This document shows positions 10,330 through 46,955 of a stretch of 64,000 nt of DNA, in pieces; position 1 is the stretch's first letter, and every line of letters begins with the position of its first letter. The DNA lies in assembly GCA_012842045.1 (NCBI GenBank), contig DUTP01000005.1, positions 11,332-75,331 on the forward strand. The letters are read 5' to 3'. The position numbers were made by a program, and so were the translations under genes. The DNA comes from Candidatus Dojkabacteria bacterium (GTDB lineage: Bacteria; Patescibacteriota; Dojkabacteria; SC72). Below the pieces are notes generated by a model. The model worked only from the letters and a program-made list of their open reading frames with translations, did not search any database and had not been told where the DNA came from.

Positions 10330-10507
10330 ATAATTAACTCTTAATACAGGTTCAGGTTACCACACTTACTTTCCCTTTCCCCATATGGACTATTACCGTT
10401 TTATTATGATTAGTTAACAAATTACAGGGTACTGTTTCCCTGTCACTATCTAACACCGAATCACAGTTTTGATTGAGGATTCTTCTCTTATATCAATGAA
10501 AAGTATG

Positions 10508-10583
10508 GGAATAGGTGGACTCGAACCACCGACTTCGGCTTTATAAGAACCGTGCTCTGACCTCCTGAGCTATATTCCCATAT
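10508..10583 (-). tRNA. tRNA-Ile with anticodon UAU (reads AUA)
   Basis: Reverse strand reads GGGAAUAUAGCUCAGGAGGUCAGAGCACGGUUCUUAUAAAGCCGAAGUCGGUGGUUCGAGUCCACCUAUUCCCA. Anticodon stem CGGUU/AGCCG, loop CUUAUAA (anticodon UAU), discriminator A73, U12-A23. CCA is not encoded. Confidence 0.75.
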
Positions 10584-21377: not shown

Positions 21378-24300
21378 CTACAAATCTGCATACTGACAAA
21401 TAGTATTGAAATCACAGAACCTACAACCAAAGCTAGGAGTAGCTGTAAACTCCCCTTTCTGTATCTTTTCAAGAACATCTAAAACACTTTCTTTTGCGAG
21501 CTCTCTTTTAGCTTGAGAAACATCTACCTCCGCCACATTACCACTTTCTACAAACACATACTTAGCCCCAACAACCTTCAACCCTAGCTTCTCTTCTGCT
21601 ACTAATGCATAGAGAGGAAGCTGTAAGTCCTTCTTTATATCAGCATCTGTTTTATCAGCCCCTGTCTTGTAGTCCACGATACAAACCTCTTTAATACCAT
21701 CCTGTTCTTGAACTAAATCTATCCTATCTATTTTCCCACTAAAGACTACTTCACCTAAATGAATAGCAAAGGACTCTTCTAACAGGAAAGGATTTTCATC
21801 TTCTGAGAACACCTTATCATAATATCTTTCCATTATTTCCTCACCTTCTCTCTTCCTAGCATTCTCCTGTTCTCTACTATCATACCCTTTACTTATCCAA
21901 TTCTTTTCATAGAAAGATAGTAAATCTTCCTTAGTCGGAGTATCTACTATTCCTCCCAAACCTTCCTTCGATTTTTTAAGTAAGGAGTAGAAATCATCTA
22001 AAGTATTATGTACACTACTTCCAAATGCAGTTGCTGGCGTACCTCTGGTAGGTATTCTAATCACATATGCATATTCATATTTCCGAGGACAACCTTCGTA
22101 TGTATTAAGTTGTGAATAGCTAAACCTTTTTACAAGATTTTTACTGTCTTCAATTAAAACATCTTGTTCTTGTCCTTTTTTCATATTTCTTAAACTAGTT
22201 ACATCATCCATCATATCATCTTCCTCTATCTTAGTAGTAAAATCTTCATCAACACTCCTATCTAAAACCTCCTGCAAGAAAATACTTGGCTTCTTTCTTC
22301 TCTTAGCTTCTCCATAGTATTGTGCTGCTGTAAAATATACCCTTTCTTTCGCTCTAGTAGCACCAACATAGAAAAGTCTTCTCTCCTCTTGCAAGTTTGA
22401 CTCTGCCTCACTAATATCTCTTAATATTGTTTCTTTAACTAATGTATCAGGAATTGGGAGAGCATCTTTCCTTGACCTACTAGGGAATCTATCAGAAACT
22501 AAATTTACTAAAAAGACAACTGGAAACTCCAACCCTTTTGCAGAGTGAACCGTCAAGATATTTACAGCATCTAACTCCTCCATACCAATCTGATCTACAA
22601 GTGGGGATTCTCCTGTTTGTATACTGTAATTTAGAAATTCTACATACTCATATATATTGCTATCTGGATTATCTTTTTCATAGTTCTTTACTAATTCAAA
22701 GAACTTATTAATATTACCTATTGCAAAAAGATTTTCAGATGTGTCCTCTTCTAAGAACTCATTTATATATCCACTTTCCATAACGAAGTCGTAAAGAATA
22801 TCTACAAGAGATTTTTGTTCCTTAATTTTCTTAGCACTTACATCTAGTAAAAGAAGCAAAGAAGAAACACCTGCAATAGCTTCTGGTGAAAGAACCTTAT
22901 CAATGATATTACTATCTATATTCTTAAAGTCCTGTTTTTCATCACTCCCTATTTTCACCTTCCATTCACTCTCAAGAAACTCCAACATTGACATTTTTTC
23001 TTCTTTAGCAAGCATTATTAACTCCATATATTCTCTTGGTGTAAGATTCCAAGTCTTCATTGTTAATAATCCAAACATTGAGACTTCATCTTTGTAATCA
23101 ACTAACACTCTTAGGAAAGAAATGATATTTTTAATTTCTGGTCTAAAGTAAAGACCTCTAGCTCCACCTAATTTGTACCTAATTCCCTTGTTTCTTAATG
23201 TTTGAATGAAGCCATCAGCATGTGTATTAGCTCTAACCAATATCGCTATATCCGAGAACTTGTATTTAGCTTCCTTTGTGCCATCAAGAGAATCTAAAAG
23301 TGTTGATTGACCCTTCTCATCAAAGGTTTGACTACTTCTATCCTCAATACTACCTCTTAATTCAGAATATCCTGTTAATTTCAATATTTCTTCAGCAACC
23401 CTCTCTGCTTCATAGTTTTCATTATGAGAAACCATGAGGTTAACTGCATTACTGTCCTCTGCAAAAGCAGCTTTTGCTACCAACTTTTTGTTAATACCTT
23501 CTGTAACTTCAAGCCTGTTTGGATCGTTATGCTTAATTAATGTATGTGAAGCATCTAATATTTCCTGTCTTGATCGGTAGTTTTCAGTAAGCACAATTTC
23601 CTGAGCATCTGGATACTCTTCTTTAAACTGCAATATATTAGATATGGCAGCACCCCTAAATTTGTAAATAGATTGGTCATCATCACCTACAACTGTTAAA
23701 CATGGTGTAGAGTTTTTGTCCTCTTTCTCACCAACCCCTTTTTTAAGTATGTTTACAAGTACATTTTGAGTATAGTTAGTGTCCTGAAACTCATCTACTA
23801 GTATATATTTGAATCTCTTTCTATATTTCTCTAAAATACTCTTCTTCTCTCTAAACAGCTTTATTGTAAGTAGAATTAGGTCTCCAAAGTCTAATCTAGA
23901 ATTTTCAATTTTAAGGTCTGCATACTTTTTGTATGCTTGTGCTAATTCATTACTCTTTACATATTCTTCTTTTTCAACATCAGTATTGTGAGGTAATTGT
24001 TTAGCATATTCTATATATTCTTCTGGAGAGACATCTTCATTTTGTAGTTTACTTATATGGTCTAAGAAATCATTTATAAACTTGGTAGGATTGCCTTTAG
24101 GAAGGAGTGTTTTAAAACCTAAATCATAGATATGTCTTCTTGTGAAGATATATGATTGAGCTGCACTCATTAGAGAGTAATCGCCATCAATACCAATATT
24201 GTATCCATCTTCTCTTAAGATTCTGTCACAGAAAGAGTGAAAAGTAGAGATGACTGGTTCATCGTAACCATATTCCATTTCCTGATCTACCCTTATCTGC

Positions 24301-24497
24301 ATCTCTTCTGCTGCTTTTTCTGTAAAAGTTAGAGCTAGTATCTCAGATGGTTTAGCCCATTCATTTTTAATTATATGTAGTATTCTCTGTGTTATTACTG
24401 CTGTTTTACCTGTACCAGCTCCTGCGATTATGAGTAGATCTCCATCTTTGTATTCTACAGCCTTCTTTTGATTTTCATTTAATCTAATCTGTCCCAT
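21378..24497 (-). CDS. UvrD/PcrA-family ATP-dependent helicase fused to a C-terminal Cas4/RecB-like Fe-S PD-(D/E)xK nuclease (compact AddA/AdnB-like)
   Basis: N-terminal Walker A (LLIIAGAGTGKTAVITQRILH) and UvrD motifs. The C-terminal ~250 aa carries GCPRKYEYAYV ... IDRIDLV ... IVDYKTG ... GCRFCDFNTIC, i.e. the RecB-nuclease D/E-K triad bracketed by a 4-Cys cluster as in AddB/Cas4. Confidence 0.8.
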   Translation of the reverse strand: MGQIRLNENQKKAVEYKDGDLLIIAGAGTGKTAVITQRILHIIKNEWAKPSEILALTFTEKAAEEMQIRVDQEMEYGYDEPVISTFHSFCDRILREDGYNIGIDGDYSLMSAAQSYIFTRRHIYDLGFKTLLPKGNPTKFINDFLDHISKLQNEDVSPEEYIEYAKQLPHNTDVEKEEYVKSNELAQAYKKYADLKIENSRLDFGDLILLTIKLFREKKSILEKYRKRFKYILVDEFQDTNYTQNVLVNILKKGVGEKEDKNSTPCLTVVGDDDQSIYKFRGAAISNILQFKEEYPDAQEIVLTENYRSRQEILDASHTLIKHNDPNRLEVTEGINKKLVAKAAFAEDSNAVNLMVSHNENYEAERVAEEILKLTGYSELRGSIEDRSSQTFDEKGQSTLLDSLDGTKEAKYKFSDIAILVRANTHADGFIQTLRNKGIRYKLGGARGLYFRPEIKNIISFLRVLVDYKDEVSMFGLLTMKTWNLTPREYMELIMLAKEEKMSMLEFLESEWKVKIGSDEKQDFKNIDSNIIDKVLSPEAIAGVSSLLLLLDVSAKKIKEQKSLVDILYDFVMESGYINEFLEEDTSENLFAIGNINKFFELVKNYEKDNPDSNIYEYVEFLNYSIQTGESPLVDQIGMEELDAVNILTVHSAKGLEFPVVFLVNLVSDRFPSRSRKDALPIPDTLVKETILRDISEAESNLQEERRLFYVGATRAKERVYFTAAQYYGEAKRRKKPSIFLQEVLDRSVDEDFTTKIEEDDMMDDVTSLRNMKKGQEQDVLIEDSKNLVKRFSYSQLNTYEGCPRKYEYAYVIRIPTRGTPATAFGSSVHNTLDDFYSLLKKSKEGLGGIVDTPTKEDLLSFYEKNWISKGYDSREQENARKREGEEIMERYYDKVFSEDENPFLLEESFAIHLGEVVFSGKIDRIDLVQEQDGIKEVCIVDYKTGADKTDADIKKDLQLPLYALVAEEKLGLKVVGAKYVFVESGNVAEVDVSQAKRELAKESVLDVLEKIQKGEFTATPSFGCRFCDFNTICQYADL

Positions 24498-24664
24498 TAT
24501 TTCAGGTTGAATAATAATATTATTAGATAAATGGTTACACCTATTATTATTGCAATTGCTAATATTGTTAGGATTTTGGGGTTGGGGAGAGTATCTACTA
24601 TTTTTTGGAGTTTGTTTTTTTCTACTTTCTTACTCATATTCTCGCATGATACTTAATTTAGATA

Positions 24665-25393
24665 TTAAAGCTCTGTTCCTCCCCACTCGATAACTGTAAA
24701 GCCTTTTCGAGTAAATGGTTTAAATGTTTGTTTTTCTATATCTATCTTCTGATTTAAAGGTTTGAAAACCATGAAGACCCTTAATACAGAATCTGGCTGA
24801 GGATCAATCTCAAGTGGAACTCTACTATCATACTCTTCCTCTGTCGCAAAATGGATTAAGTTATATTCATTCCCAATCATTTTAGGCAGCCAATATACTA
24901 TAAATTCATTATATTCCTTTTCATTCAAACCCATCTCTTCCAACTGCTGTTGCAAGAACTGCATTGTATCTGAACCTTTAACAACAAAACCTGTACTTAA
25001 ATCATATTCGGCAGAACGACCAGAAGGAGCCTCCCAGAAGAGATAACTGTACTCTCTTCCATCTTCAATATTAGTTAATATACCATCTGGTTTTGCAATA
25101 ACGTTCCATCCGTCTTTGTATTCTGGGTATGTTACTAAGAAGTTTGCTTTTGGAGTTACAGTAACTTTGACTATCATCTCTTCCTCTGGATAGAGATATA
25201 TTACCGGCTTAGCATCATATTCATCGCCAATATGCAAATCTCTGAGCTGTTGAACTAAGGATTTTTCCTTTTTTAAAAAGAAAAAGCATACTGCAATAAC
25301 TCCTAAAACACCCAATATTACGAATATTATCCATATTGGTATTTTTCTGTCCTTTACACTCTTCTTTTTTTTAGTCATATATATATTATTCAT
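24665..25393 (-). CDS. Hypothetical membrane-anchored protein
   Basis: One N-terminal TM (IPIWIIFVILGVLGVIAVCFFFL) and a globular ectodomain. No motif recognised. Confidence 0.4.
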   Translation of the reverse strand: MNNIYMTKKKKSVKDRKIPIWIIFVILGVLGVIAVCFFFLKKEKSLVQQLRDLHIGDEYDAKPVIYLYPEEEMIVKVTVTPKANFLVTYPEYKDGWNVIAKPDGILTNIEDGREYSYLFWEAPSGRSAEYDLSTGFVVKGSDTMQFLQQQLEEMGLNEKEYNEFIVYWLPKMIGNEYNLIHFATEEEYDSRVPLEIDPQPDSVLRVFMVFKPLNQKIDIEKQTFKPFTRKGFTVIEWGGTEL

Positions 25394-25396
25394 AAA

Positions 25397-26266
25397 TTAA
25401 CTAGCTAATTCTTTTAATTTCTCAACCTCTGCTGGAATAGTTGCATTACTCTTTAAAGCAGGTGTTTCTAAAATGAAAGGAATGTTTTTAAATTTAGGTT
25501 CATGAAGAATATGTGATATTGTTTTTTCTCCTAACTTACCTTTACCTAAATTAGCATGCCTATCCTTGTTACTACCACACTCTACCATAGAGTCATTAAG
25601 GTGTATTGCTTTAACATTCTCTATACCCACCACCCTATCCATTTCTTCCACTACACCAGTCATATCATTCACCCAGTCATACCCACCTGCAAATGTATGT
25701 TGTGTATCAACTACAAAACCTACCCTCTGACTATCTTTCACCCCCTCCTTGATTAACTTTAATTCTGTAAAATTCCTTCCAAAGTTAGTTCCAGTACCAG
25801 CAGTTGTTTCAATTAGTAGCTTCTGTGTTCCTTTTACTTCATCTAAGACCCACTGCATTCCGTATGATATTCTTTCTAAACTATCTTCATATGACAATTC
25901 TTTTTGAGAACCAGGGTGAAAACATACTCCTAATACTTCACTATCTATCTTTCTTGCTTTAATACCTTTTGCTACCTTCTCTGCAAAATCTAGATATACT
26001 ACTAAACCCATTTTACCCAAATGGAACAACTTTTTATCTTCCCTTGCTAGATTGGTTAGATATATTCCATGCACCAACACCTTCTTTATACTAGACTTCT
26101 CTAATTCATCTAGAAAAGCAGTAATATCTTCATCAGGAATTAACTTAGTAGCCCACTTCATTGGTGTTGTAGGCATCATTTGAATACTATTTACTCCATA
26201 CTTTTCACCGTTCTTTATTGAATTTTCTATCCCACCAGAAGAGGATACATGAATGCCTAGATACAT
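25397..26266 (-). CDS. nfo: Endonuclease IV (AP endonuclease family 2, xylose-isomerase-like TIM barrel)
   Basis: MYLGIHVSSSGGIENSIKNGEKYGVNSIQMM at the N-terminus, plus the Nfo signature AIHLNDSMVECGSNKDRHANLGKGKLG (HLNDSK...DRH.). Confidence 0.85.
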   Translation of the reverse strand: MYLGIHVSSSGGIENSIKNGEKYGVNSIQMMPTTPMKWATKLIPDEDITAFLDELEKSSIKKVLVHGIYLTNLAREDKKLFHLGKMGLVVYLDFAEKVAKGIKARKIDSEVLGVCFHPGSQKELSYEDSLERISYGMQWVLDEVKGTQKLLIETTAGTGTNFGRNFTELKLIKEGVKDSQRVGFVVDTQHTFAGGYDWVNDMTGVVEEMDRVVGIENVKAIHLNDSMVECGSNKDRHANLGKGKLGEKTISHILHEPKFKNIPFILETPALKSNATIPAEVEKLKELAS

Positions 26267-26323
26267 ATTAATATTTTAGCACAATCACATATTTTAAAGT
26301 ATAATCTTAGAAAGGAAACTACA

Positions 26324-26962
26324 ATGGGATTATGGGACAAAGTAGAAAATATTTTCCCTGAAAGAGGGAAACAAGAACAACAAGATGTTGTTGAGGATAT
26401 AATAGTAGCAGAGAATATTCGCCCGAAGTCTGTATTGGCTCATATCGATGAAATTCCTTGGCCAATATTCTTTTCTGAAAGACTACCATTTTCAACGGTT
26501 TACGGATTTACAATTGAAGGGTGTGGCAATCCAGATGATTTCATTGCCCAATATCCTACAAAACCAGTACCAACAGAGCTAGAAATGGATAACTATGAGG
26601 ATTTGGATTTATTACTAAAGACATATCGAACAGACCTATTTTTCGCTTCGTCTGCTCTAGATTATGGCAATTGGTTACAAGGAAGAAATATGGCAATGAC
26701 ACTAGCTGATAATGAAGTTGACTGGATTCTTTTCATACATGATGTACTCATTAAAGATTCAAAATTAAAGTTAGGAAATATATCCGGATTTACAAGGTTC
26801 AGACAAGTCTTGAATGAACGAGGATATATGATAAAAGAATATACTAATCATCTAGATCCAATAGCTCTTCAGTACTATTTAGCAATTGCTCCAAAAAGAA
26901 TTGACCAACCAATTCTTGAAAGGGCAAGAAGCAATCGTATACTTACTCCCTCCTTTGCATAA
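26324..26962 (+). CDS. Hypothetical protein (212 aa)
   Basis: Open frame with typical codon usage. No motif recognised. Confidence 0.4.
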   Translation: MGLWDKVENIFPERGKQEQQDVVEDIIVAENIRPKSVLAHIDEIPWPIFFSERLPFSTVYGFTIEGCGNPDDFIAQYPTKPVPTELEMDNYEDLDLLLKTYRTDLFFASSALDYGNWLQGRNMAMTLADNEVDWILFIHDVLIKDSKLKLGNISGFTRFRQVLNERGYMIKEYTNHLDPIALQYYLAIAPKRIDQPILERARSNRILTPSFA

Positions 26963-27155
26963 TTTCCCAAAAGAAATTCTTTAGTAAAAAGCGATGTACA
27001 ACTAATATAACTCCATGTATATACATACATAGTACTCTACCTCACATACGAAAAAGAAAGATATGTTGCAACTCAAAGAATCTTCTCCAACCAGACTGAT
27101 TGGGCTAATAGCATGGAATAAAAAACCAATATAAAGTATAATTACTAGTTATTAT

Positions 27156-27244
27156 GGAGAGGTGCCTGAGTGGTCGAAAGGAACTCACTGCTAACGAGTC
27201 GTAGGTCTTAAAGCCTACCGAGGGTTCGAATCCCTCCCTCTCCG
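27156..27244 (+). tRNA. tRNA-Ser (anticodon GCU), long variable arm
   Basis: GGAGAGGUGCCUGAGUGGUCGAAAGGAACUCACUGCUAACGAGUCGUAGGUCUUAAAGCCUACCGAGGGUUCGAAUCCCUCCCUCUCCG. Anticodon loop CUGCUAA, long extra arm, discriminator G. Confidence 0.85.
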
Positions 27245-27292
27245 TGTTTCCAACTGCCTAACCAATCGTTTAAGATAAACTCAAACTTAAGA

Positions 27293-37742: not shown

Positions 37743-38999
37743 TTACAAGGAAAAATTCATTCTTTCCAAATAGCCTTCTGGAGCATCTTGCTTGTCCCAA
37801 TCCTCTATACCAAGGAGTTCCTCAAGACTTGCCTCTCCCTTTTCTCTTCTATCTTTCGCTGTTCTTATTAACAACTCTAATAGAAGGGCTTTTTCGAATT
37901 TCCCCCAGTGGTAGCCATCATAATAATGTCCAAAGAAAGACCTTTCATAAAAAGTAAACCATCGGCTAAGCCCTCTTTCAAGCTGAAGCTCTTCTGGATC
38001 CTTAACACCAAGATCAGCTGCTTTGTATAAGACAAAAAGCTTTGCAGCCTCAACCTGCTCTTTCTCTGTCCCTGCATATTTTCCTTTTGTTGAAGCAGTC
38101 TCTAAATCATCATCCTCGTTAATATGGGGTTCAGGCATATTTTCTTCAAGTAAAGATAATGCTTTTCCTAAGAAAAATAGTTCAGACCTATTTAAGTTAT
38201 TAAGAAGCTCTGGATTCTTAATAACTCCTGCATATTGACCTGCAACTCTTTTAGACCAAGATTCTGTATTTACTTCTTTATTTACTTCATTTATGAAAGT
38301 AGCATAGTCTTTTAACAGTCCAGGATATATATCATTGATTACTCTAAAACCTTCCCATCTTAGATAAGGAGATGCTTGCAAGTCACGCTCATTTCGATAT
38401 ATAGGAAGAATGTCTTCTTCCAATCTCTCCGAGATACTATCTCGCTTCTTAACGAGCTCTGGGTATATACTAAGCATTCTCTTAGTACTAAACCAATTAA
38501 TCCCAGAATTTTCTATAATCTCTTCTGCCCATTCTGGATGTTCATCTAAAATCCCTCCAATAGCTGCTGTAGTATCAGTAATACTATCTATTAATACTGG
38601 ATATAATTTATCCATATTGATAATAGTGTCTTCTAAACTTTTAAGTCTAGTAACATCTTCAAGTTGTTTCATCAATTCAGGTTGTGAGCCTTTGAGTATG
38701 TTTAGAATCCCAGGTTTCCACCCTGTTATTCTTTCTAAAGCTGGAGAAGTACACTCCTCTTCTTGATTCCAAGGCTCAAAAATCTCTGCTAATTCAGGAA
38801 AATTTTCCTTAATGTTTTCCTGTTGTTCTCGAAAAGTAGCAAGAGATGTCGTGAAATCATCAAGAGATCTTTCTTCTTGCTCTCCTGTAGGATCTCCTAC
38901 TACTATTAATCCTGAAAGAACCTCTTTAAGTTTTGCAGGTATCTCGTTTGAATCTTTTGATTCAGGGCTGGATAATTTCTCTAAAGCATTTGTTTCCAT
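37743..38999 (-). CDS. Hypothetical protein (418 aa), last gene of the co-directional MTase-REase block
   Basis: Soluble and acidic, no TM, no recognisable motif. Lies 90 bp downstream of the 245-aa ORF on the same strand. Confidence 0.4.
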   Translation of the reverse strand: METNALEKLSSPESKDSNEIPAKLKEVLSGLIVVGDPTGEQEERSLDDFTTSLATFREQQENIKENFPELAEIFEPWNQEEECTSPALERITGWKPGILNILKGSQPELMKQLEDVTRLKSLEDTIINMDKLYPVLIDSITDTTAAIGGILDEHPEWAEEIIENSGINWFSTKRMLSIYPELVKKRDSISERLEEDILPIYRNERDLQASPYLRWEGFRVINDIYPGLLKDYATFINEVNKEVNTESWSKRVAGQYAGVIKNPELLNNLNRSELFFLGKALSLLEENMPEPHINEDDDLETASTKGKYAGTEKEQVEAAKLFVLYKAADLGVKDPEELQLERGLSRWFTFYERSFFGHYYDGYHWGKFEKALLLELLIRTAKDRREKGEASLEELLGIEDWDKQDAPEGYLERMNFSL

Positions 39000-39089: not shown

Positions 39090-39827
39090 TTAATAAAAAT
39101 CATAAAACCACTCTATCTCACACCTAGGATATAGTTCTTTCATATCAAAGAGATTATTTAAATCTTCTATATTCTTTGCCTTAGATAATTTTTCTAAAAA
39201 GATTTTGTACTTCTCTTCCTTAATCTCCCATTCAGAATTAATAAATTGACCCCAAATAACAAGAATTTTTGTTTTAGGATCTCTAGTTCTCATATCTTTT
39301 AGGTATTCTTTTGGAAACAACCTCTTATACTCCTCCCTGTTATACAACCAACTACCTCCTTCTACATATTTAGCTTTGGGATATGTCTCTCTAACCTCCT
39401 CAAACATCTCTTTTAACTCAGCTAATCTTTTAGGTTTTTCACTTAAGGATAATGGTCCATTCTTACTCTTACCGTCATTGAGAAAATGTATCTTTACAAT
39501 ACCTTCTCCATTCTCATCTGCTACATACTTGTATCCAAAACAACCAAACCATTTTTTCTTTTTATCTGGATCTTGATAGTTTCGTATATGTAATTCATAT
39601 GCTACATCTACCATATTCTCTCCTTTTTCATACCTTTCTATTAGTTCTTTCCAATGTTTAGATTCTGGGTCAAAATCCCATGAATAGTTACCTATGAGGA
39701 AGAATATTGGTGTATATTTTTTAATAGATTCAATTATATCTATACCATCTATCTCACCTCTTTTAGAAGCATATTCAATAATCATGTGGAAGAGTTTTTT
39801 AGGATATAGTTCTTTTTTAGGTTGCAT
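39090..39827 (-). CDS. Hypothetical protein (245 aa) downstream of the restriction endonuclease
   Basis: Soluble. No recognisable motif. Same strand, 93 bp from the REase. Confidence 0.4.
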   Translation of the reverse strand: MQPKKELYPKKLFHMIIEYASKRGEIDGIDIIESIKKYTPIFFLIGNYSWDFDPESKHWKELIERYEKGENMVDVAYELHIRNYQDPDKKKKWFGCFGYKYVADENGEGIVKIHFLNDGKSKNGPLSLSEKPKRLAELKEMFEEVRETYPKAKYVEGGSWLYNREEYKRLFPKEYLKDMRTRDPKTKILVIWGQFINSEWEIKEEKYKIFLEKLSKAKNIEDLNNLFDMKELYPRCEIEWFYDFY

Positions 39828-39920: not shown

Positions 39921-40733
39921 CTACTTAATAACTTTATCGTAAAGATTATCAAACATCTTTTTTGTTTCGTTGCTTTCACTTAAGCTCGTCATATAATTAT
40001 TCAAGTCATCATAATTGATATTTGATAAAAACTCACTGAAAAATCTCTCTCCTCGTCGTATATTCGTAGATTCAGGAATATATGGATTGTTTTTCATTTT
40101 CTTATTATTAAAGAAAAATAAAATGGGTACTAAGCCATTTCTGTCTGTTATACCTAGCTCTTTTACTAAATATGCATATGTTTTGATAAATTTGCGGTTT
40201 ATATCGACAAATTTACCTGTATCGTGGTCATCATTATATTTGATTTCCAAATAATAATATGTACCTGTTGTTTTATTCTTAAATAATAGATCTATATCAT
40301 GCTTAAAAGTGTTTTGTTTTATATCAGTGTCTTCTAAAATACTTTGCTGTAATTTTGGGAACTCGGTAATACAATATCCTTCTGGCTCTAACTGACATTT
40401 ACTGATGTAGTTATCTATTCTACTTTCATTATTGTTTGAAAGCACAAAAGCACTACTCTTTTTGCCTGAATATTCAGCAACTATTTCATATTCTTCTTCG
40501 TTTTCAATAAGAAGTGACATTAGTTCTTCAATAAAATTACCTAATTGAATATTCATAGACTGCAGTATGCCACCAAAAATACGATAAGATTTCGGAATAA
40601 AATGTATTTTCTTTGTATGTTTATCATCAAGTTTCTTAATAGTTTCTTGACTACCCATTTTCATCAAGATATTTTTAACAACCTTGTTTATAAGTATTTT
40701 TACTTCATCGTTCATTTTTTTTGGAATATTCAT
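39921..40733 (-). CDS. Putative Type II restriction endonuclease (cognate to the adjacent MTase), PD-(D/E)xK-like
   Basis: Overlaps the MTase stop by 29 nt, the typical R-M arrangement. Candidate catalytic segment is HDIDLLF...YYYLEIKYNDD (D...ExK). At 270 aa it is close to R.HinfI (262 aa); homology was not tested. Confidence 0.5.
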   Translation of the reverse strand: MNIPKKMNDEVKILINKVVKNILMKMGSQETIKKLDDKHTKKIHFIPKSYRIFGGILQSMNIQLGNFIEELMSLLIENEEEYEIVAEYSGKKSSAFVLSNNNESRIDNYISKCQLEPEGYCITEFPKLQQSILEDTDIKQNTFKHDIDLLFKNKTTGTYYYLEIKYNDDHDTGKFVDINRKFIKTYAYLVKELGITDRNGLVPILFFFNNKKMKNNPYIPESTNIRRGERFFSEFLSNINYDDLNNYMTSLSESNETKKMFDNLYDKVIK

Positions 40734-41790
40734 ATCTTAAATTATTTATTGGTTTTAGTTTTTTACTTTTCTTAAAATAAAAATAATCCCAACCATTATT
40801 ATTTGTTCGATTGAGGTGTTTTGCCGACATCTTGTGAATCGATAAAACATCTTGTCCGTCATTAGCATAGCCGTCGCTTGTTAAAACTGCAATTTTGTCA
40901 CCTTTTTTGTTATAGAGTTGTTCACCAGTTTTCAAAAGCCCACTTTCTATTAATTGTTTTATACTAACTCTTGGTGGTTTAACTTCTAGTACTAAATTAT
41001 GAATGTCAGAATCATCAACCTTGACTTGTTTTATGCGCTTTTCGGCAGCCTTAATATATTTTTCCTCCATTTCAAAGCCGATATAATTACGGCCAAGTAG
41101 TTTTGCAACCGCACCAGTAGTTCCAGAGCCAAAAAATGGATCTAAAACAACATCATTTGGCTTGCTCGTAGAAAGAATTATTTTATAGAGTAGTTTTTCT
41201 GGCTTTTGTGTTGAATGTAGTTTCTTTCCGTTTCTATCTTTTAATCGTTCACCACCAATACAAATACCAATATCCCAGATGCTTTTATCCTGTTTACCAC
41301 CATTAAGGTGCTTCATCGTCTTGTAATTAAAAGTGTATTTTGATTTTTGATCTTTAGAGCACCAGAGTAAAGTTTCGTGAGAGTTTTGATATCTTGTACC
41401 ACTAAAATTTGGCACAGCATTAGGTTTTGACCAAACAATATCGTTAAGAATCCAAAAACCGAGATTCTGCATGATATAACCCAGACGATAGATATTTTGA
41501 AAAGAGCCAATCACCCAAATAGCTCCATCTGGCTTTAATATTCGTCTACACTCTCGTAGCCATTTTTCGCTAAAATCGTCGTACTCTTTATATGTATTAA
41601 ACTTATCCCATTTATCTTTAACACCATCAAATTTTGAACCATCTGTACGTAATAGTTCGCCTTCAGTTTGCATCCAATATGGTGGATCAGCAAAAATCAA
41701 GTTAATAGAATTGTCAGGGATTAGTGATAGGTTTGCTAGACAGTCACCAGCAATAATAGTGTTAATATATTTGCTTAAATTTTTACTCAT
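40705..41790 (-). CDS. Beta-class N6-adenine DNA methyltransferase, CcrM/M.HinfI family (GANTC-type), with a C-terminal extension domain
   Basis: Motif IV is IFADPPY near the N-terminus. Motif I is VLDPFFGSGTTGAVAKLLGRNYIGFE near aa 220-245 (beta-class order). Collinear strings match CcrM: WILNDIVW, HETLLW, HSTQKPEKLL. A ~110-aa C-terminal tail resembles the CcrM/HinfI non-catalytic domain. Confidence 0.9.
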   Translation of the reverse strand: MSKNLSKYINTIIAGDCLANLSLIPDNSINLIFADPPYWMQTEGELLRTDGSKFDGVKDKWDKFNTYKEYDDFSEKWLRECRRILKPDGAIWVIGSFQNIYRLGYIMQNLGFWILNDIVWSKPNAVPNFSGTRYQNSHETLLWCSKDQKSKYTFNYKTMKHLNGGKQDKSIWDIGICIGGERLKDRNGKKLHSTQKPEKLLYKIILSTSKPNDVVLDPFFGSGTTGAVAKLLGRNYIGFEMEEKYIKAAEKRIKQVKVDDSDIHNLVLEVKPPRVSIKQLIESGLLKTGEQLYNKKGDKIAVLTSDGYANDGQDVLSIHKMSAKHLNRTNNNGWDYFYFKKSKKLKPINNLRYEYSKKNER

Positions 41791-41932: not shown

Positions 41933-42354
41933 TGGTGGAGACGATGGGAATTGAACCCATGTCCAAAAGTATCATCTAGTACCATATACAAACATATCTA
42001 ATCTTGTTTAGTAAGATATACCTAAAAGACTAGACAAAAAGTATATCCCCTCAGTTATACTTCTCAATCAACTACCCTACTGACCTGATAGAAGATCGTA
42101 CCCTAATAACGACTGTCTTAGATTCCTCATTAGGGAAAAGAATAAAAGACACTAACCAAAATCAATTAGTTAGACTGATGCAAAATTGTATGCATAGGCT
42201 GGAGCTGCAAATGCTGCTCTTAGTCCTGCGCTTACTTTATCTGCAAAAGCGACGATTTTGTTTTTTACACTTATCTTGTGTGTTAAGAATAACGAACTTA
42301 ACAAACGGTTTGTGATAACTAGAATCAAGCTTCTGTCGATAGCCTGACGTCCCC
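41933..42354 (-). ncRNA. ssrA: tmRNA (ssrA)
   Basis: 5' end GGGGACGUCAGGCUAUCGACAG... (conserved GGxUUCGAC block). 3' end ...GGACAUGGGUUCAAUUCCCAUCGUCUCCACCA is nearly identical to the E. coli tmRNA 3' end GGACGCGGGUUCAACUCCCGCCAGCUCCACCA. The acceptor stem includes the G3·U70 alanine identity pair. Internal tag ORF begins after ...AUCGUC: GCU UUU GCA GAU AAA ... GCA UCA GUC UAA CUA A. Confidence 0.85.
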
Positions 42355-42378
42355 ATATTGGTAAAGAACTACTCTATA

Positions 42379-42900
42379 TTATACCATTTCTGAGGGATTT
42401 TTTCTACTCAATGTTGTAAGAATTCTGTTTAAGAGCATAGCATACTCTTCTTCACTAACCTTACAATCAGAGTTCGCGGCAAAACCTGCATCTTTCCTAA
42501 TCATTTCATAGGTAACACCACCTCCTAAATCCTCCCTAAAACCTATTCTATCTATTCTTGTTTCTGCCAAATTCTTATTCGCAATCTCAACGGCTTTCGC
42601 TAAATTGTTACCTGTCTGTTCTATACGTTTAAGAGAATCTATATGGGAAAAAATGATAAAGGTTGTTACTATCTGTGCATGATCTAAATCTTCTGTTTCA
42701 ATGCCAAAGATTTTAAGATATTCTTTTTTTTGATCATCATACTTAGAACTAAAACTTGTAGCTCCCTCTCCCTTATAGTTCAAATTTTCGACTGACAACT
42801 CTACTCTCCTAATATCCTCTTCCGTTATCTCAGTTTTGAAGATTGCTTCTTTTTCAGTAGAATCCATTCCATGTGAACCACCTACCTTAAATATTTCCAT
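42379..42900 (-). CDS. Hypothetical protein (173 aa)
   Basis: Soluble. No recognisable motif. Lies between the paralog pair and the tmRNA on the same strand. Confidence 0.4.
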   Translation of the reverse strand: MEIFKVGGSHGMDSTEKEAIFKTEITEEDIRRVELSVENLNYKGEGATSFSSKYDDQKKEYLKIFGIETEDLDHAQIVTTFIIFSHIDSLKRIEQTGNNLAKAVEIANKNLAETRIDRIGFREDLGGGVTYEMIRKDAGFAANSDCKVSEEEYAMLLNRILTTLSRKNPSEMV

Positions 42901-42970
42901 AATTATAAATATAACAAATTAGTACTCTATTATACCATTTCTAGGTATTTCTACCATTCAAAACACACTT

Positions 42971-43780
42971 TTATTTTAAACTATGACCAAGAGACTTATT
43001 ACTTAGCGCTATTGTATTAAAAAGTATTATCGCATCCAAACCATCTAGGTTCTCTCCAGTCCAAACAATATTACCATCCTCTTTTTGTCTCTTTTCTAAT
43101 ACTACTTTTCCATCAACAAGAATATGATCATCCTGCACTTCTGCATCAATATCATGATATCTCTTGAAAGCTGCTAAAAGAAAAGGTTCCGATTCTTCAA
43201 GATATGGTAACTCAAAAGAATATGAAAGTATATTTGTTTTAACATCTTTCTTGCTATTCCCTATTTCCCATTTAATAATATTTGTCTCAACTATTTCTGA
43301 GCGTATTCCAGGTACATTAATTCCCACATGTTTAAGATACTCAACTAAGCATTCTTGAAAAAAGAGCGCTTGCCAAGCATGATATACATTATGTATATCT
43401 AATCTATCCATTCTTGCATTTAAGTGACGGGGTTCTCCTTCATGAGCATATATATACATCCACACACCATTTCCAGGGTGAGGCATCAATGATTTTAAGT
43501 AATAGGTGCCATTTTCATTCTCTCCCCACTCATCACGGCCATAATTCCCTTCAGGAAAATATCTTTCTTTAATCTTTTCAATTTCAAGTAAGCAATCTAA
43601 GTATTTATCTTTACTCAACTCCAAACCTTCTTCCAACCTTGGTGATAAACCTTTCCTACCTCCATACCACTCGATATCATATTCAACATGTTCATAGTTA
43701 CCCTTTCGGAATATAACATAAGGAATATCAAAATTCTCAAATATTGGCTCAGCAGAATCCTTTATATCTTTTGGATCCAT
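42971..43780 (-). CDS. Hypothetical protein, member A of a tandem paralog pair
   Basis: 269 aa. Shares collinear motifs with the adjacent 263-aa ORF: KERYFPEGNYGRDEW vs KDKYFPNGYQGQDEW; GIRSEIVETNI vs GIRSEVLGTDI; NILSYSFELPYLEESE vs NILSWSFKLPYFEGSE. Confidence 0.45.
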   Translation of the reverse strand: MDPKDIKDSAEPIFENFDIPYVIFRKGNYEHVEYDIEWYGGRKGLSPRLEEGLELSKDKYLDCLLEIEKIKERYFPEGNYGRDEWGENENGTYYLKSLMPHPGNGVWMYIYAHEGEPRHLNARMDRLDIHNVYHAWQALFFQECLVEYLKHVGINVPGIRSEIVETNIIKWEIGNSKKDVKTNILSYSFELPYLEESEPFLLAAFKRYHDIDAEVQDDHILVDGKVVLEKRQKEDGNIVWTGENLDGLDAIILFNTIALSNKSLGHSLK

Positions 43781-43839
43781 ATATATTTTTTAGTTTAGTT
43801 AAAAATAAAAAACAAGTCTAATATCTTATCCGGAATATT

Positions 43840-44631
43840 TCAATAACACCCCTTAGCAAGTTTCGTATTAGTATTTGCTATCATATTAAAATAGTTTATC
43901 ACTATATCAGGATCTGTAATATTCTCTACTACCCATATCTTCCTTCCTTGTTCATCTGACTTTACTTTAGGAATATTTTTATACCTACTCTCCATCAATT
44001 TATCGACAACAACATGCTCAGAACCTTCAAAATATGGAAGTTTAAAAGACCAAGAAAGGATATTCTTTCTAAATTCTACTACTCTACCATCAGCCTTTGT
44101 TTGCTCACTTATATCTGTACCAAGCACCTCAGAGCGAATACCCCAAGCACCTATACCTACATATCCTAGATATGTTAGTAAACATTCATAAAGAGCAAGA
44201 GCATGCTCTGGAGATTTGATACTACGTGGTATATCTACCAACCAATCACTTTCAAGTTCACTATTCTTTTCTCCTTCACGAGCAAATATACGCAGTTGTA
44301 ATCTCGTATCAGGATTTGGTATCACATTTAAACATGTTAAAGAATTAGTACCATCAAGATACCGTCTCCATTCATCTTGCCCTTGATACCCATTAGGAAA
44401 ATATTTATCTTTAACCAGTTCGATAGCAAAACGACATTCTTCAAGGCTTTCTATAGGTACTCCCAACCCTTCAGATAATTTATTAGTCAGAGCAGATTCA
44501 TGTCTTTGACCCCAAGTTATCCAATAGATGTTGTCTCCTTTAGATGTTCTCTGAGCAATATTAGGAATATCGACATCCAACATGATTCCTGGATCTTTCA
44601 TATCTACAATATCATGTTTCTCTATGTCCAT
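43840..44631 (-). CDS. Hypothetical protein, member B of a tandem paralog pair
   Basis: 263 aa. Paralogous to 42971..43780 (see motifs there). Neither has a TM or signal peptide. Confidence 0.45.
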   Translation of the reverse strand: MDIEKHDIVDMKDPGIMLDVDIPNIAQRTSKGDNIYWITWGQRHESALTNKLSEGLGVPIESLEECRFAIELVKDKYFPNGYQGQDEWRRYLDGTNSLTCLNVIPNPDTRLQLRIFAREGEKNSELESDWLVDIPRSIKSPEHALALYECLLTYLGYVGIGAWGIRSEVLGTDISEQTKADGRVVEFRKNILSWSFKLPYFEGSEHVVVDKLMESRYKNIPKVKSDEQGRKIWVVENITDPDIVINYFNMIANTNTKLAKGCY

Positions 44632-44723
44632 CAGTAGTATATTATAACATTTAATATAGGCTTACAGCAAGAAAGAAAATTTAGTTAAATCTAAACCAAA
44701 ACTTATGATAGAATGGAAAAGCT

Positions 44724-45500
44724 ATGAAATTACTAACTCAAAACATATATTGTGTAACTACATGGGATTCTAAGAAAGACACTCTCCTAAAAGCATACAA
44801 AGAGATTAATCCAGATATTCTTTGTTTACAAGAATTAATATGTGGAAAAACTAATAGTTCTGAAGAAGTAAATGATATTGAAAAAACACTAAATACTACT
44901 GGTTACTTCACAGACACATTCGAATACATGCCTAATCAAGGCATCTTTGTTAAAAACAAAGATGTTGATGTTATTCAAAAATTCAGATTAAACCATTCCA
45001 ACTTATACAAAGACGGAACCCTTGATAGTCATCCTAGAGTAGTAGTTGCAATGTTATTAGGTATAGAAGGAAAAGAGCTTCTAGTTATTAATCTACATTT
45101 ATCAAAATTCAAACATTTTAGATACCAAAACTGGGAAGAGGTAATGTTTTGGTTAAAGAAATCCGGATTAATAAAGAAAAATATTCTCGTAGTAGGAGAT
45201 TTTAATTCGTATGATAAAGATGATGTTCATAAAACTGTTGAGAAGAGCGGTTTTAAGAATGCTTGGGAAGAAGTGAATAAAGAGAAGTGTATTAGTTACA
45301 ACTCTTCTAAATGGTGGAGTAAAAACTATCCTAATCATCCTGTTAGTAAGATGGCTCATGAGAGAAAAATATCATGGGATGATAATTGTATAGACTTCAT
45401 ATTTTACAAAGGGAACATCAAGATAAATTCGGTAGAGTTATTAGATCTAGTTCCTGAAGGTACAGACCATAGAGGTTTGATATTGGATTTTAGTCTTTAA
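44724..45500 (+). CDS. Endonuclease/exonuclease/phosphatase (EEP) family hydrolase
   Basis: The EEP catalytic landmarks appear in order: LCLQE (Glu), VINLHL (His), VVGDFN (Asp/Asn), C-terminal GTDHRGLIL (Asp-His). No signal peptide. Confidence 0.7.
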   Translation: MKLLTQNIYCVTTWDSKKDTLLKAYKEINPDILCLQELICGKTNSSEEVNDIEKTLNTTGYFTDTFEYMPNQGIFVKNKDVDVIQKFRLNHSNLYKDGTLDSHPRVVVAMLLGIEGKELLVINLHLSKFKHFRYQNWEEVMFWLKKSGLIKKNILVVGDFNSYDKDDVHKTVEKSGFKNAWEEVNKEKCISYNSSKWWSKNYPNHPVSKMAHERKISWDDNCIDFIFYKGNIKINSVELLDLVPEGTDHRGLILDFSL

Positions 45501-46197
45501 TATATCTCCAATGCCAAGGTTCATACATAGTTCCAAACTCATTATCCTTAGGAAATGATTCTTTAAAACCAAATTTCTCTGCATTTTGTACAAGCCATTT
45601 GTATTCCTTAGTATCTTCAAAATATCTATCATCGTGTTCTTGAGGAACACCATCCTCTGTAATGAAATCTATAGCTACATTATCCGCAACACAATGTTCA
45701 CTATATCCAGGCATAGCAACTCTTTCTAATGTTTTTCCTACATCAAATTCATACATATTAAGATACCAAACAAGAAGGAAGAGCTGATATGCAGGAGAAC
45801 GATAACCAGATCTAACTAAAAGTTTCTTACCAATATCTTTAAACATAGCTCTATTCATTTTTTCATATGCCTTATACACCTTCCTTGGTAAATAGCTCTC
45901 CCCTATCTCGTGATACCCCTGTTCTTCAGTATCTGTCTCATATCTTTGTCCTCTTATCTCAACTAAATCTTTAGGTACATCTTGTATACCAAGATATTCA
46001 CCCTTAATACCATAGTCATGGGGATTTATTGTTAAAAGTTTCTTTAAAAATTTAATCTCTTTTCTATTAAGAAAACTGTAGACTGTATCTAAATCTGCTA
46101 TTGAGAACTTTTCTTTTTCTGTTTCTGTAATCTTTTTAAGAAGAGATTTAGTTAATTCTTTTTCTTCTTCTGTTATTGTAAATGGTTTTTGTTTCAT
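45490..46197 (-). CDS. D-alanyl-D-alanine carboxypeptidase, VanY / peptidase M15 family
   Basis: VRSGYRSPAYQ, GYSEHCVADNVAIDF and YEPWHWRY are the Zn-binding H-x6-D ... H and EPWHW motifs of LAS-type M15 peptidases. Confidence 0.8.
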   Translation of the reverse strand: MKQKPFTITEEEKELTKSLLKKITETEKEKFSIADLDTVYSFLNRKEIKFLKKLLTINPHDYGIKGEYLGIQDVPKDLVEIRGQRYETDTEEQGYHEIGESYLPRKVYKAYEKMNRAMFKDIGKKLLVRSGYRSPAYQLFLLVWYLNMYEFDVGKTLERVAMPGYSEHCVADNVAIDFITEDGVPQEHDDRYFEDTKEYKWLVQNAEKFGFKESFPKDNEFGTMYEPWHWRYIKD

Positions 46198-46217
46198 TTT
46201 TATTTATTTAATCTTTC

Positions 46218-46955
46218 CTACTTCCTCCTCCCATACTCCCACATACCAATGCTTGTAGCTACTGAAAGGTTTAAAGAATCAATTTCATCTGAATGAGGAA
46301 TGTATATACTCTCACCATTTCTCTTCTCCATTGTTTTGTAACTATCATCTAACCCCCTACCCTCATTACCTTGTATAAAAGAGAATGGTTCTTTGAATTC
46401 AACCTCTAGAATATTCTTTGCACCATCTAACATGAAAGGATACATATTATGCCCCTTGTAAGCCTCTGTATATGCCCTAATTGAGTCGAAATATCTAAAA
46501 TAGACTCTAAACAATGCTCCCATTGTAGACCTAACAACCATAGGGTCAAAAATATCAACACCTGGTTTAATTATTGCAAGATTCTTAAACCCAAAACCAA
46601 CCATAGTTCTAATAATCGTACCTAAATTACCAGTATTACTAGGATTAACTAAAACAATATGATTCTTTTCACTCTCTAAAACCTCTTCATACTTCTCAAA
46701 TATACCTACCACATACGTATTCTCCTTGTATGCAATCCTATCAATTAACTTATCATTCTCCTCAAAAGGAATATTCTCTCTCTTACAAATATCTAATATT
46801 TCAGAAATACCATCACTTTTTAAGCCTTCTTTTTTAACTAAAACCTTTAAAACTTTTTCCTTTTGGAATTTCAAAAGATCTAATACAGGATATGCTCCAA
46901 AAGCATATGAAAAATCAAATTTCTTTTGATATCTTTTTAATTTTGGTAGTTGCAT
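46218..46955 (-). CDS. SpoU/TrmH-family RNA 2'-O-methyltransferase
   Basis: VLVNPSNTGNLGTIIRTMVGFGF and IPHSDEIDSLNLSVATSIGMWE are SPOUT class motifs. ~245 aa. Confidence 0.8.
   Translation of the reverse strand: MQLPKLKRYQKKFDFSYAFGAYPVLDLLKFQKEKVLKVLVKKEGLKSDGISEILDICKRENIPFEENDKLIDRIAYKENTYVVGIFEKYEEVLESEKNHIVLVNPSNTGNLGTIIRTMVGFGFKNLAIIKPGVDIFDPMVVRSTMGALFRVYFRYFDSIRAYTEAYKGHNMYPFMLDGAKNILEVEFKEPFSFIQGNEGRGLDDSYKTMEKRNGESIYIPHSDEIDSLNLSVATSIGMWEYGRRK

What the first reader, a model, noticed from the sequence alone, without database searches (positions are those of the whole stretch)
42379..45500. Tandem pair of paralogous unknown proteins plus a 173-aa unknown, upstream of ssrA and divergent from an EEP nuclease/phosphatase
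Two adjacent ~265-aa soluble proteins are clearly paralogous (KxKYFPxGxxGxDEW, GIRSE, NILSxSFxLPYxExSE) but strongly diverged. Together with the 173-aa ORF, they run co-directionally into the tmRNA gene. An EEP-family hydrolase (DNase-I/phosphatase fold) is transcribed divergently. None matches a family I recognise. The location next to ssrA and an R-M system suggests defence or conflict-system cargo of unknown type.
Basis: inference. Interest (0 to 1): 0.55.

Follow-up and report, generated by a model that had tools for sequence, protein, structure and literature searches.

The report
Fast-evolving orphan gene cassettes beside ssrA
Two real, anciently duplicated genes of a tiny protein family found only in Dojkabacteria (a candidate-phyla-radiation lineage) sit in a slot next to the tmRNA gene whose content differs between close strains; they match no known family or fold and evolve about four times faster than their neighbours, and their function is still unknown.

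Summary

The three genes are not one unit, and they are not tied to EEP, ssrA or the R-M system. Relatives whose flanks are 87-96% identical carry B+173, C+A, A alone, A+173 or nothing between EEP and ssrA. B (with A downstream of it), the 173-aa gene and ssrA each have their own extended -10 promoter. Family dN/dS is 0.37-0.54 against 0.06-0.16 for the flanks, and there are signs of cassette and intragenic exchange. Another Dojkabacteria clade keeps a family member between nfo and tRNA-Ser(GCT).

My best reading is a set of non-catalytic, rapidly diversifying binding proteins in a strain-variable hotspot near oriC, possibly conflict-related. That function is inferred, not shown.

The parts
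43840..44631 (-). Paralog B (263 aa), the B/C-type subfamily member in the EEP-proximal position
   Evidence: ORF. 34% identical to A. 95.8% identical to the L007 ortholog, with dS 0.038 against 0.29-0.31 for the flanks. Replaced in L001/L011/L020 by the 292-295 aa C type, only 34% identical. Falls in the B/C clade of the NJ tree.
42971..43780 (-). Paralog A (269 aa), the A-type subfamily member in the ssrA-proximal position
   Evidence: ORF. AF2 pLDDT 83.5, pTM 0.85. Orthologs 68%, 62%, 59% and 55% identical in L001, L021, L022 and L004. Absent from L007/L006 as a clean ~900-bp indel. dN/dS 0.37-0.54. Intragenic mosaic in dS.
42379..42900 (-). 173-aa helical orphan, an independent cassette unrelated to A and B
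44638..44652 (-). Extended -10 promoter-like box (AAATGTTATAATATA) upstream of B
   Evidence: Repeat family D1; sequence; conserved in L007. No comparable box lies before A, so B and A are probably co-transcribed (inference).
42926..42940 (-). Extended -10 promoter-like box upstream of the 173-aa ORF, the upstream copy of the duplicated ssrA promoter
   Evidence: Repeats D1/D4. Homologous to the single ssrA promoter of L001.
42375..42389 (-). ssrA promoter -10 box (TGgTATAAT), lying inside the last codons and stop of the 173-aa ORF
   Evidence: Best promoter-like hit, 10 of 12 with TG. Sequence. The same box lies before ssrA in L001 and L024.
41933..42354 (-). ssrA (tmRNA), the conserved right-hand boundary of the variable slot
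   Evidence: ARAGORN; Rfam RF00023 at 108.9 bits; 94.7-98.3% identical to relatives.
44724..45500 (+). EEP-superfamily hydrolase, the conserved left-hand boundary; not obligately linked to the family
   Evidence: PF03372 at 40.4 bits. xth-type NCBIfam models all fall below their cut-offs. 87-96% identical in relatives, dN/dS 0.06-0.11. Split into two ORFs in L006. Directly adjacent to ssrA in L024.
39921..41790 (-). HinfI-type type II R-M pair (methylase 40705-41790, REase 39921-40733): a separate strain-specific insertion 3' of ssrA
   Evidence: Low GC of 0.28-0.295. Absent from L001, L007 and L018, which carry other genes there. No att repeat of the ssrA 3' end.
45490..46955 (-). VanY (45490-46197) and SpoU methylase (46218-46955), the conserved flank. 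Relatives carry extra cargo between these two genes.
   Evidence: Inserted here in relatives: RhuM, AAA_5+VWA and giant proteins in L001, L006, L007 and L011, and an rve integrase in L004.
25397..27245 (.). Second, analogous slot in this genome: nfo (25397-26266, -), an unrelated 212-aa orphan (26324-26962, +) and tRNA-Ser(GCT) (27155-27245, +). In other Dojkabacteria this slot holds a family member.
   Evidence: hhalign of the 212-aa protein against the family gives probability 0.1%. The nfo<->family->tRNA-Ser layout is seen in L009/10, L013/14 and L015/16.

Best explanation
What is shown. A and B belong to a very small protein family seen so far only in Dojkabacteria. The proteins are cytoplasmic, about 260 aa, and fold into two alpha+beta lobes. 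The family split long ago into an A type and a B/C type. These genes and the unrelated 173-aa gene are separate cassettes. They occupy a slot between EEP and ssrA, about 9 kb from oriC, whose content differs between closely related strains. B, the 173-aa gene and ssrA each have their own ssrA-like extended -10 promoter. A follows B without a comparable box, so the two are probably co-transcribed. Cassettes are gained, lost and swapped by recombination; for the 173-aa cassette this happens between duplicated promoter copies.

What is inferred. The proteins are probably not enzymes. Only core hydrophobic and aromatic residues plus one Glu and one Asp are conserved, and most of the variation lies in indel-rich loops on a conserved scaffold. 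They most likely act by binding a partner that itself varies. That would make them immunity-like or anti-invader factors in an intracellular conflict. They do not appear to be cofactors of EEP, nfo, ssrA or the R-M system.

Confidence differs sharply between the two parts. For the descriptive part (orphan, fast-evolving cassettes in a variable slot) it is about 0.85. For the functional part (a conflict-related binding protein) it is about 0.3.
For: - Rarity: 7 hits among 5.8 billion clustered proteins and 23 representatives among 1.84 billion. The named members are Candidatus Dojkabacteria.
- No known family.
- Conservation: across 21 members the invariant residues are P20, W38, L95, E143, Y148, F189, P192 and F254.
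- Mosaic slot: window B+A+173; L007/L006 B+173; L001/L011/L020 C+A; L004 A; L021 A+173; L022 A without EEP; L024 empty, with EEP directly facing ssrA; L018 173 only.
- Rates: family dN/dS 0.37-0.54 against 0.06-0.16 for VanY, EEP and the 245-aa gene. In the nfo clade, nfo is 74-85% identical while the family is 34-38% identical.
- Exchange: B has dS 0.038 against about 0.3 for its flanks. A against L004 has dS 0.92 against about 0.53 for the flanks. A against L001 shows dS 0.75-2.2 over the first 85 codons and 0.08-0.29 over the rest.
- Deep alleles: B and C are about 34% identical at the same position between strains whose flanks are about 90% identical.
- Promoter repeats.
- Neighbourhood in relatives holds RhuM, AAA_5+VWA, rve, HigBA and hsdM.
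Against: - No partner, toxin or defence gene co-varies with the family in the loci seen.
- No PADLOC hit. No relatives on viral contigs, phage records or plasmid records.
- dN/dS stays below 1 overall and is uniformly 0.18-0.32 in the comparison of A with L021. Relaxed constraint alone could explain the speed. The few windows with omega above 1 rest on very small dS.
- In the nfo clade the gene is stably present at one site, which looks like a lineage-core gene rather than cargo.
- The acidic pI (about 5) is ordinary for this genome: a third of ORFs are below 5.2.
- AFDB and ESM-scale fold libraries could not be searched, so 'new fold' means only 'not in PDB or BFVD'.
Confidence: 0.4

Rival explanations
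1. Orphan genes under weak constraint. The family and the 173-aa gene are lineage-specific, dispensable proteins with a minor or redundant cellular role. Their fast divergence and presence/absence simply reflect relaxed selection in a recombination-prone region near oriC and tRNA-like genes. No conflict is involved.
For: - dN/dS of 0.2-0.5 never convincingly exceeds 1.
- Close strains do without A, B or 173.
- There is no catalytic signature.
- Neighbouring orphans behave the same way: the 418-aa gene is 23-26% identical to its syntenic counterparts, and an unrelated 212-aa gene fills the nfo slot.
Against: - The fold is well packed and confidently predicted from only 8 sequences.
- The gene persists at the nfo/tRNA-Ser site across genomes whose members have fallen to about 35% identity.
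- Deeply diverged alleles (B and C at 34%) are maintained at one position between roughly 90%-identical backgrounds, and cassettes are exchanged. This is more typical of balancing or diversifying selection than of decay.
- No frameshifted copies of the family were seen, whereas EEP is broken in L006.
Confidence: 0.25
2. Accessory factor of AP-endonuclease-type repair nucleases. The protein regulates, inhibits or partners the divergently transcribed nuclease, which is EEP (ExoIII-like fold) in this clade and nfo (Endo IV) in the other. The neighbour would then have been replaced by an analogous, non-orthologous gene.
For: In two separate clades the family is transcribed divergently from a nuclease of the two classic AP-endonuclease folds. 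One is EEP. The other is nfo, above the TIGR00587 cut-off and lying next to a UvrD-PDDEXK helicase.
Against: - L022 has A next to ssrA with no EEP.
- L024 has EEP facing ssrA with no family member.
- L006 keeps an intact B beside a broken EEP.
- The window's own nfo faces an unrelated 212-aa gene.
- The nucleases are 4-8 times more conserved than the family, so there is no sign of co-evolution.
- EEP does not reach any xth cut-off.
Confidence: 0.1
3. Factor acting on tRNA-like RNAs. The protein binds, processes or protects the adjacent RNA, either tmRNA or the long-arm tRNA-Ser. That would explain why it sits immediately upstream of such genes in both clades.
For: - The family gene ends 40-110 bp before ssrA or tRNA-Ser(GCT) in L001, L004, L022, L009, L013 and L015.
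- In L009 a second, short family-like ORF follows the tRNA.
Against: - The RNA genes have their own promoters.
- Strains with 95-98%-identical ssrA differ in having 0, 1 or 2 copies.
- Very fast protein evolution contrasts with a nearly invariant RNA.
- The proteins are acidic, with no conserved basic patch.
- L017 and L026 members are followed by hsdM and a GH1 gene, not by an RNA gene.
Confidence: 0.08
4. Cargo of a classical integrase-mediated genomic island or prophage remnant inserted at ssrA, forming one defence island together with the R-M system.
For: - ssrA is a well-known island integration site (established knowledge).
- A low-GC R-M pair lies next to it.
- Relatives have an rve integrase, RhuM and HigBA nearby.
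Against: - The family lies on the 5' side of ssrA, whereas islands integrate at the 3' end.
- The window region has no integrase.
- There is no direct repeat of the ssrA 3' end.
- No relatives in viral, phage or plasmid collections.
- GC is the same as the surroundings.
- The R-M system and the paralogs vary independently.
Confidence: 0.05

Closest known systems
Strain-variable hotspots (genomic islets or plasticity zones) at tRNA and tmRNA genes
   Same: The content between conserved flanking genes next to ssrA and tRNA-Ser differs between close strains. Defence and mobile genes (R-M, RhuM, HigBA, rve, AAA_5+VWA) accumulate in the same neighbourhood.
   Different: The paralogs lie on the 5' side of the RNA gene, with no integrase and no att duplication of the RNA 3' end. 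Cassette borders coincide with duplicated promoter sequence. GC content matches the host.
Tandem arrays of polymorphic-toxin immunity proteins (for example SUKH/SMI1-KNR4 and the Imm families)
   Same: Small to medium cytoplasmic alpha+beta proteins with no catalytic signature, in tandem divergent paralogs. Copy number varies between strains, sequences diverge quickly and deep alleles sit at one locus.
   Different: No sequence or structural match to any Imm or SUKH family. No toxin gene upstream. Each cassette has its own promoter. A stable single copy exists at the nfo/tRNA-Ser site in another clade.
KA1 / BamC-N / TBP-like (helix-grip) alpha+beta binding modules
Class II aaRS / biotin-lipoate ligase (BPL/LplA) fold
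   Different: Low scores with high rmsd. The family has no invariant Lys or nucleotide-binding motif. TM-scores are <= 0.21.

Membership tests
Any curated protein family (Pfam-A, NCBIfam, PHROGs) for A, B and the 173-aa protein | Score at or above the family's curated threshold, or a significant E-value | tested here: not met
   The best hits are DUF6280 at E 0.091 (13.4 bits, cut-off 27) for B and phrog_26484 at E 0.07 for A. The 173-aa protein has none.
Known anti-phage defence systems (PADLOC-DB 2.0) | Match of A, B, the 173-aa protein or EEP to a defence-system protein model | tested here: not met
   no hit for the four proteins. Only the neighbouring HinfI REase matches (REase_II, E 7.5e-98).
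Integrase-mediated genomic island at ssrA | Element located 3' of ssrA and bounded by a direct repeat of the ssrA 3' end | tested here: not met
   The paralogs lie 5' of ssrA. The 25-nt 3' end of ssrA occurs once in the window even when 3 mismatches are allowed.
Integrase-mediated genomic island at ssrA | Tyrosine or serine integrase within the element | tested here: not met
   No integrase domain in ORFs from 37.7 to 47 kb. An rve transposase-type integrase occurs only in relative L004.
Polymorphic-toxin immunity protein arrays | Homology to a known immunity family, and/or a position immediately downstream of a toxin-domain gene | tested here: not met
   No Pfam or PDB match. The upstream neighbour is the divergently transcribed EEP gene, and the family occurs without it.
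Polymorphic-toxin immunity protein arrays | Tandem divergent paralogs with strain-variable copy number and rapid divergence | tested here: met
   This is a behavioural resemblance only.
Class II aaRS / BPL / LplA superfamily | Core fold match plus a conserved catalytic Lys or nucleotide-binding motif | tested here: not met
EEP superfamily (the divergent gene at 44724-45500) | PF03372 at or above the gathering score | tested here: met
   40.4 bits against 24.5, spanning profile positions 1-225 of 225.
Exodeoxyribonuclease III (xth) equivalog, for the EEP gene | TIGR00633 or TIGR00195 at or above the curated cut-off | tested here: not met
   34.7 bits against 99.05, and 27 bits against 182.55. 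No PDB sequence relative at E <= 0.01.
tmRNA (ssrA) | Rfam RF00023 at or above the gathering score, full-length match, with a tag reading frame | tested here: met
   108.9 bits against 47, model positions 1-374 of 374. ARAGORN finds a tag peptide.
HinfI-type type II R-M system | REase equivalog above cut-off plus an adjacent N6/N4 DNA methylase | tested here: met
   NF045831 at 372.8 bits against 175. PF01555 at E 3.1e-70 plus a RAMA domain.

The most novel reading that the evidence does not exclude
The A, B/C and nfo-type proteins would be a previously unseen class of intracellular recognition or immunity proteins specific to Dojkabacteria, which belong to the episymbiotic candidate phyla radiation (CPR). 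They would have a fold absent from PDB and variable loops on a conserved two-lobe scaffold. They would be kept as deeply diverged alleles and exchanged between strains as promoter-bounded cassettes at slots next to tRNA-like genes. This would be a chromosomal, integrase-free cassette system that diversifies a conflict-related binding protein.
Probability: 0.2. Interest if true: 0.65.

Novelty: new variant of a known kind. Interest (0 to 1): 0.4.

Why it matters
CPR bacteria have tiny genomes (about 0.7 Mb), and most of their lineage-specific proteins are uncharacterised. This locus is unusually informative for three reasons:
- Its flanks are almost identical between strains, so gain, loss, swapping and intragenic recombination of orphan genes can be read directly.
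- The family has a confidently predicted structure with no match among solved structures.
- The same family occupies a second, analogous slot in a sister clade.

If the proteins prove to be diversifying binding or immunity factors, they would be a new entry in the small catalogue of CPR conflict systems. They would also be an example of integrase-free cassette turnover through promoter duplication. If they are only weakly constrained orphans, the locus is still a clean marker of strain-level variation in digester Dojkabacteria. On present evidence the function is unknown, so the finding is moderately interesting rather than striking.

Tried and rejected
- Family libraries (Pfam, NCBIfam, PADLOC, PHROGs) for A, B and the 173-aa protein: nothing.
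- Profile of 21 members against PDB sequences: best E 0.044, noise.
- Foldseek against BFVD for A: TM <= 0.23.
- AFDB50 Foldseek: library unavailable.
- Are the 173-aa protein, the window's 212-aa nfo-slot protein, L022's 262-aa protein or L024's 253-aa and 189-aa proteins hidden family members? hhalign probabilities are below 1%, so no.
- Internal duplication of the two lobes: hhalign probability below 1%. There are only faint collinear hints (G..VW followed by a helix A..LF..L in both halves), so no claim is made.
- Giant-protein hits P0041 and P0043 from the representative search are Big_12 repeat proteins and were rejected as spurious.
- DNA-mimic idea based on acidity: rejected, because a pI near 5 is common in this genome.
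- att-site search for an ssrA island: negative.
- Viral contigs, phage records and plasmid records: no relatives.
- The GTDB genome scan found one locus and the metagenome scan four, limited by the pattern method. Alignments A2 and A4 were too diverse to seed a scan.
- One literature search (Dojkabacteria / tmRNA / hypothetical protein) returned nothing relevant.
- The hypothesis of a functional link to EEP or nfo was tested through context and largely rejected.
Full report
**1. What is there**

The window comes from a Candidatus Dojkabacteria (CPR) genome. The exact A protein is deposited under that name on a 753-kb contig. On the minus strand the order is as follows:
- SpoU methylase, 46218-46955
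- VanY, 45490-46197
- [EEP hydrolase on the plus strand, 44724-45500]
- paralog B, 43840-44631, 263 aa
- paralog A, 42971-43780, 269 aa
- a 173-aa ORF, 42379-42900
- ssrA, 41933-42354
- HinfI-type methylase, 40705-41790
- HinfI-type REase, 39921-40733
- a conserved 245-aa gene, 39090-39827

dnaN, dnaA and rpmH lie at 50.6-54.0 kb, so the locus is about 8-10 kb from the replication origin.

**2. No known family, and a very small one**

A, B and the 173-aa protein have no significant match in Pfam, NCBIfam, PADLOC or PHROGs. They also have none among PDB sequences when searched with a 21-member profile. A word-indexed search of 5.8 billion clusters found 7 relatives of A. An exhaustive HMM search of 1.84 billion representatives found 23, of which 2 are spurious Big_12 repeat proteins. 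Viral contigs, phage records and plasmid records hold none.

Across 21 full-length members the invariant residues are P20, W38, L95, E143, Y148, F189, P192 and F254. This is a hydrophobic and aromatic core with one Glu, which does not look like an active site. The proteins have no signal peptide or membrane segment (read from the sequence). Their pI of about 5 is ordinary for this genome.

**3. Structure**

- Bet v 1 (helix-grip)

BFVD gives TM <= 0.23. AFDB could not be searched.

**4. The slot between EEP and ssrA varies between strains**

| Locus | Content |
|---|---|
| Window | EEP<->B-A-173-ssrA |
| L007, L006 | EEP<->B-173-ssrA; A is missing as a clean ~900-bp indel; flanks 94-95% nt identical |
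| L001, L011, L020 | EEP<->C-A-ssrA; C (292-295 aa, P0030) is only 34% identical to B, with no DNA similarity; no 173-aa gene |
| L004 | EEP<->A-ssrA |
| L021 | EEP<->A-173 |
| L022, L023 | SpoU-401aa-A-ssrA; no EEP or VanY |
| L024 | SpoU-EEP<->ssrA; nothing in between |
| L018 | SpoU-VanY-173-like-ssrA |

A neighbour-joining tree separates an A clade and a B/C clade as sisters, with a third 'nfo-type' clade outside them. The duplication is therefore old. The present pair is one of several combinations produced by differential loss and replacement.

**5. Promoters and cassette borders**

Three copies of an extended -10 box, AAATG(G/T)TATAATA, lie upstream of B (44652-44638), upstream of the 173-aa ORF (42940-42926) and upstream of ssrA (42389-42375).

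The ssrA copy lies inside the last codons of the 173-aa ORF. The C-terminal LSRKNPSEMV is encoded by a second copy of the roughly 35-bp ssrA promoter segment, which is single in L001 and L024. The 173-aa cassette is thus flanked by a promoter duplication, and that duplication is exactly where the indel against L001 maps. ssrA therefore does not depend on read-through from these genes. A has no comparable box and is probably co-transcribed with B (inference).

**6. Evolutionary rates**

Nei-Gojobori dN/dS values are:

| Gene | dN/dS |
|---|---|
| VanY | 0.09-0.16 |
| EEP | 0.06-0.11 |
| 245-aa gene | 0.10-0.12 |
| A | 0.37-0.54 |
| B | 0.48 |
| 173-aa ORF | 0.38 |

B between the window and L007 has dS 0.038, while the adjacent EEP and VanY have 0.29-0.31. 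This indicates a recent transfer of the B cassette. A between the window and L004 has dS 0.92 against about 0.53 for the flanks.

Within A (window against L001), the first 85 codons have dS 0.75-2.2 and the rest 0.08-0.29, which is an intragenic mosaic. Three C-terminal windows give omega 1.1-2.3, but on very small dS. The L021 comparison is uniformly 0.18-0.32. So the genes are under purifying selection overall, are several-fold less constrained than their neighbours, and recombine. Positive selection is not demonstrated.

**7. A second home for the family**

The more distant members P0026, P0028 and P0032 are 24-31% identical to A. All of them lie as UvrD-PDDEXK helicase - nfo (-) <-> family (+) -> tRNA-Ser(GCT). 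There nfo is 74-85% identical between genomes while the family member is 34-38% identical.

The window has the same helicase-nfo-tRNA-Ser frame (21378-27245), but its slot holds an unrelated 212-aa orphan. L009 has a further short family-like ORF just after the tRNA. L017's member is followed by hsdM. L026's short member follows SpoU and precedes a GH1 gene.

**8. Interpretation**

The divergent nuclease neighbour is EEP in one clade and nfo in the other, which is eye-catching. The link is not obligate, for four reasons:
- A occurs without EEP (L022).
- EEP occurs without the family (L024).
- B is intact beside a broken EEP (L006).
- The window's own nfo faces an unrelated gene.

The proximity to tRNA-like genes recurs. 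However, the RNA genes have their own promoters, and strains with 95-98%-identical ssrA carry 0-2 copies.

The R-M pair is a separate, low-GC, strain-specific insertion on the 3' side of ssrA, with no att repeat. The classical ssrA-island model fails: the paralogs are on the wrong side, and there is no integrase and no att site.

What remains is a small family of non-catalytic-looking, fast-evolving, recombining cassette genes. They sit in a hotspot that, in relatives, also collects RhuM, AAA_5+VWA, an rve integrase, HigBA and R-M genes. I take a diversifying binding or immunity-like role as the most likely function (about 0.3). Weakly constrained orphan genes are the main rival (0.25). Nuclease-accessory (0.1) and tRNA-like-RNA-related (0.08) roles are minor rivals.

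**9. Verdict**

The proposed grouping with the 173-aa ORF, EEP, ssrA and the R-M system is not supported.

The locus is a variant of a known phenomenon, the strain-variable hotspot at tRNA and tmRNA genes. It carries an unclassified protein family whose fold has no match in PDB or BFVD. Interest is moderate (0.4), because the function is unresolved and orphan families are common in CPR genomes.

Noticed in passing
window 10505-10580 (-): ARAGORN calls a tRNA-Ile with anticodon TAT. Most bacteria decode AUA with a CAT-anticodon tRNA modified by TilS, so a UAU tRNA-Ile is unusual. It may say something about AUA decoding in this CPR lineage.
   Followed up: no
window 39921-41790 (-): The HinfI-type R-M pair lies immediately 3' of ssrA. 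Its GC is 0.28-0.295 against about 0.34 nearby. It is absent from relatives, which carry flavodoxin-like, HAD and 171/172-aa genes or a HigBA pair at the same place. No att repeat of the ssrA 3' end was found.
   Followed up: partly
window 42375-42410 and 42926-42960 (-): The last ten codons and the stop of the 173-aa ORF are encoded by a duplicated copy of the ssrA promoter segment. The two copies flank the 173-aa cassette and coincide with the borders of the indel seen in strains that lack it.
   Followed up: yes
window 26324-26962 (+): A 212-aa orphan with no Pfam hit fills the nfo<->X->tRNA-Ser(GCT) slot that holds a family member in other Dojkabacteria. It is unrelated by hhalign. This suggests a second variable slot.
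   Followed up: partly
window 37743-38999 (-); L001 14192-16667: The 418-aa orphan is only 23-26% identical to two tandem 403- and 409-aa genes at the syntenic position of L001, although the adjacent 245-aa gene is 94% identical. This is another fast-evolving, tandemly duplicated orphan family in the same neighbourhood.
   Followed up: no
L006 6281-7056: In one close relative the EEP gene is split into two ORFs of 118 and 119 aa, while the adjacent B-type gene is intact. It is probably a pseudogene or an assembly frameshift.
   Followed up: no
window 41933-42354 (-); L001, L004, L007, L011, L022, L024: The predicted tmRNA tag differs between close strains: it ends in YNFASV in the window, L007 and L011, and in YNFA in L001 and L004. 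It is shorter or different in L022, L018 and L024. ARAGORN's long tag beginning VKNKIV may misplace the resume codon.
   Followed up: no
L006 290-4473; L011 1150-5333; L001/L007 1-5577; L004 1-5269: Between SpoU and VanY, relatives carry cargo that is absent from the window. It includes a VWA/CobT_C + 138-aa + AAA_5 trio (which resembles vWA-MoxR conflict systems, from memory), RhuM, giant proteins of 1746-1976 aa and an rve integrase.
   Followed up: no
L009 1676-2284 (+): A second, short family-like ORF (HMM E 1.5e-13) lies directly after tRNA-Ser(GCT), so in this genome the tRNA gene is bracketed by family members. It probably corresponds to the 164-167-aa members P0038 and P0039, which contain only the N-terminal lobe.
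   Followed up: no
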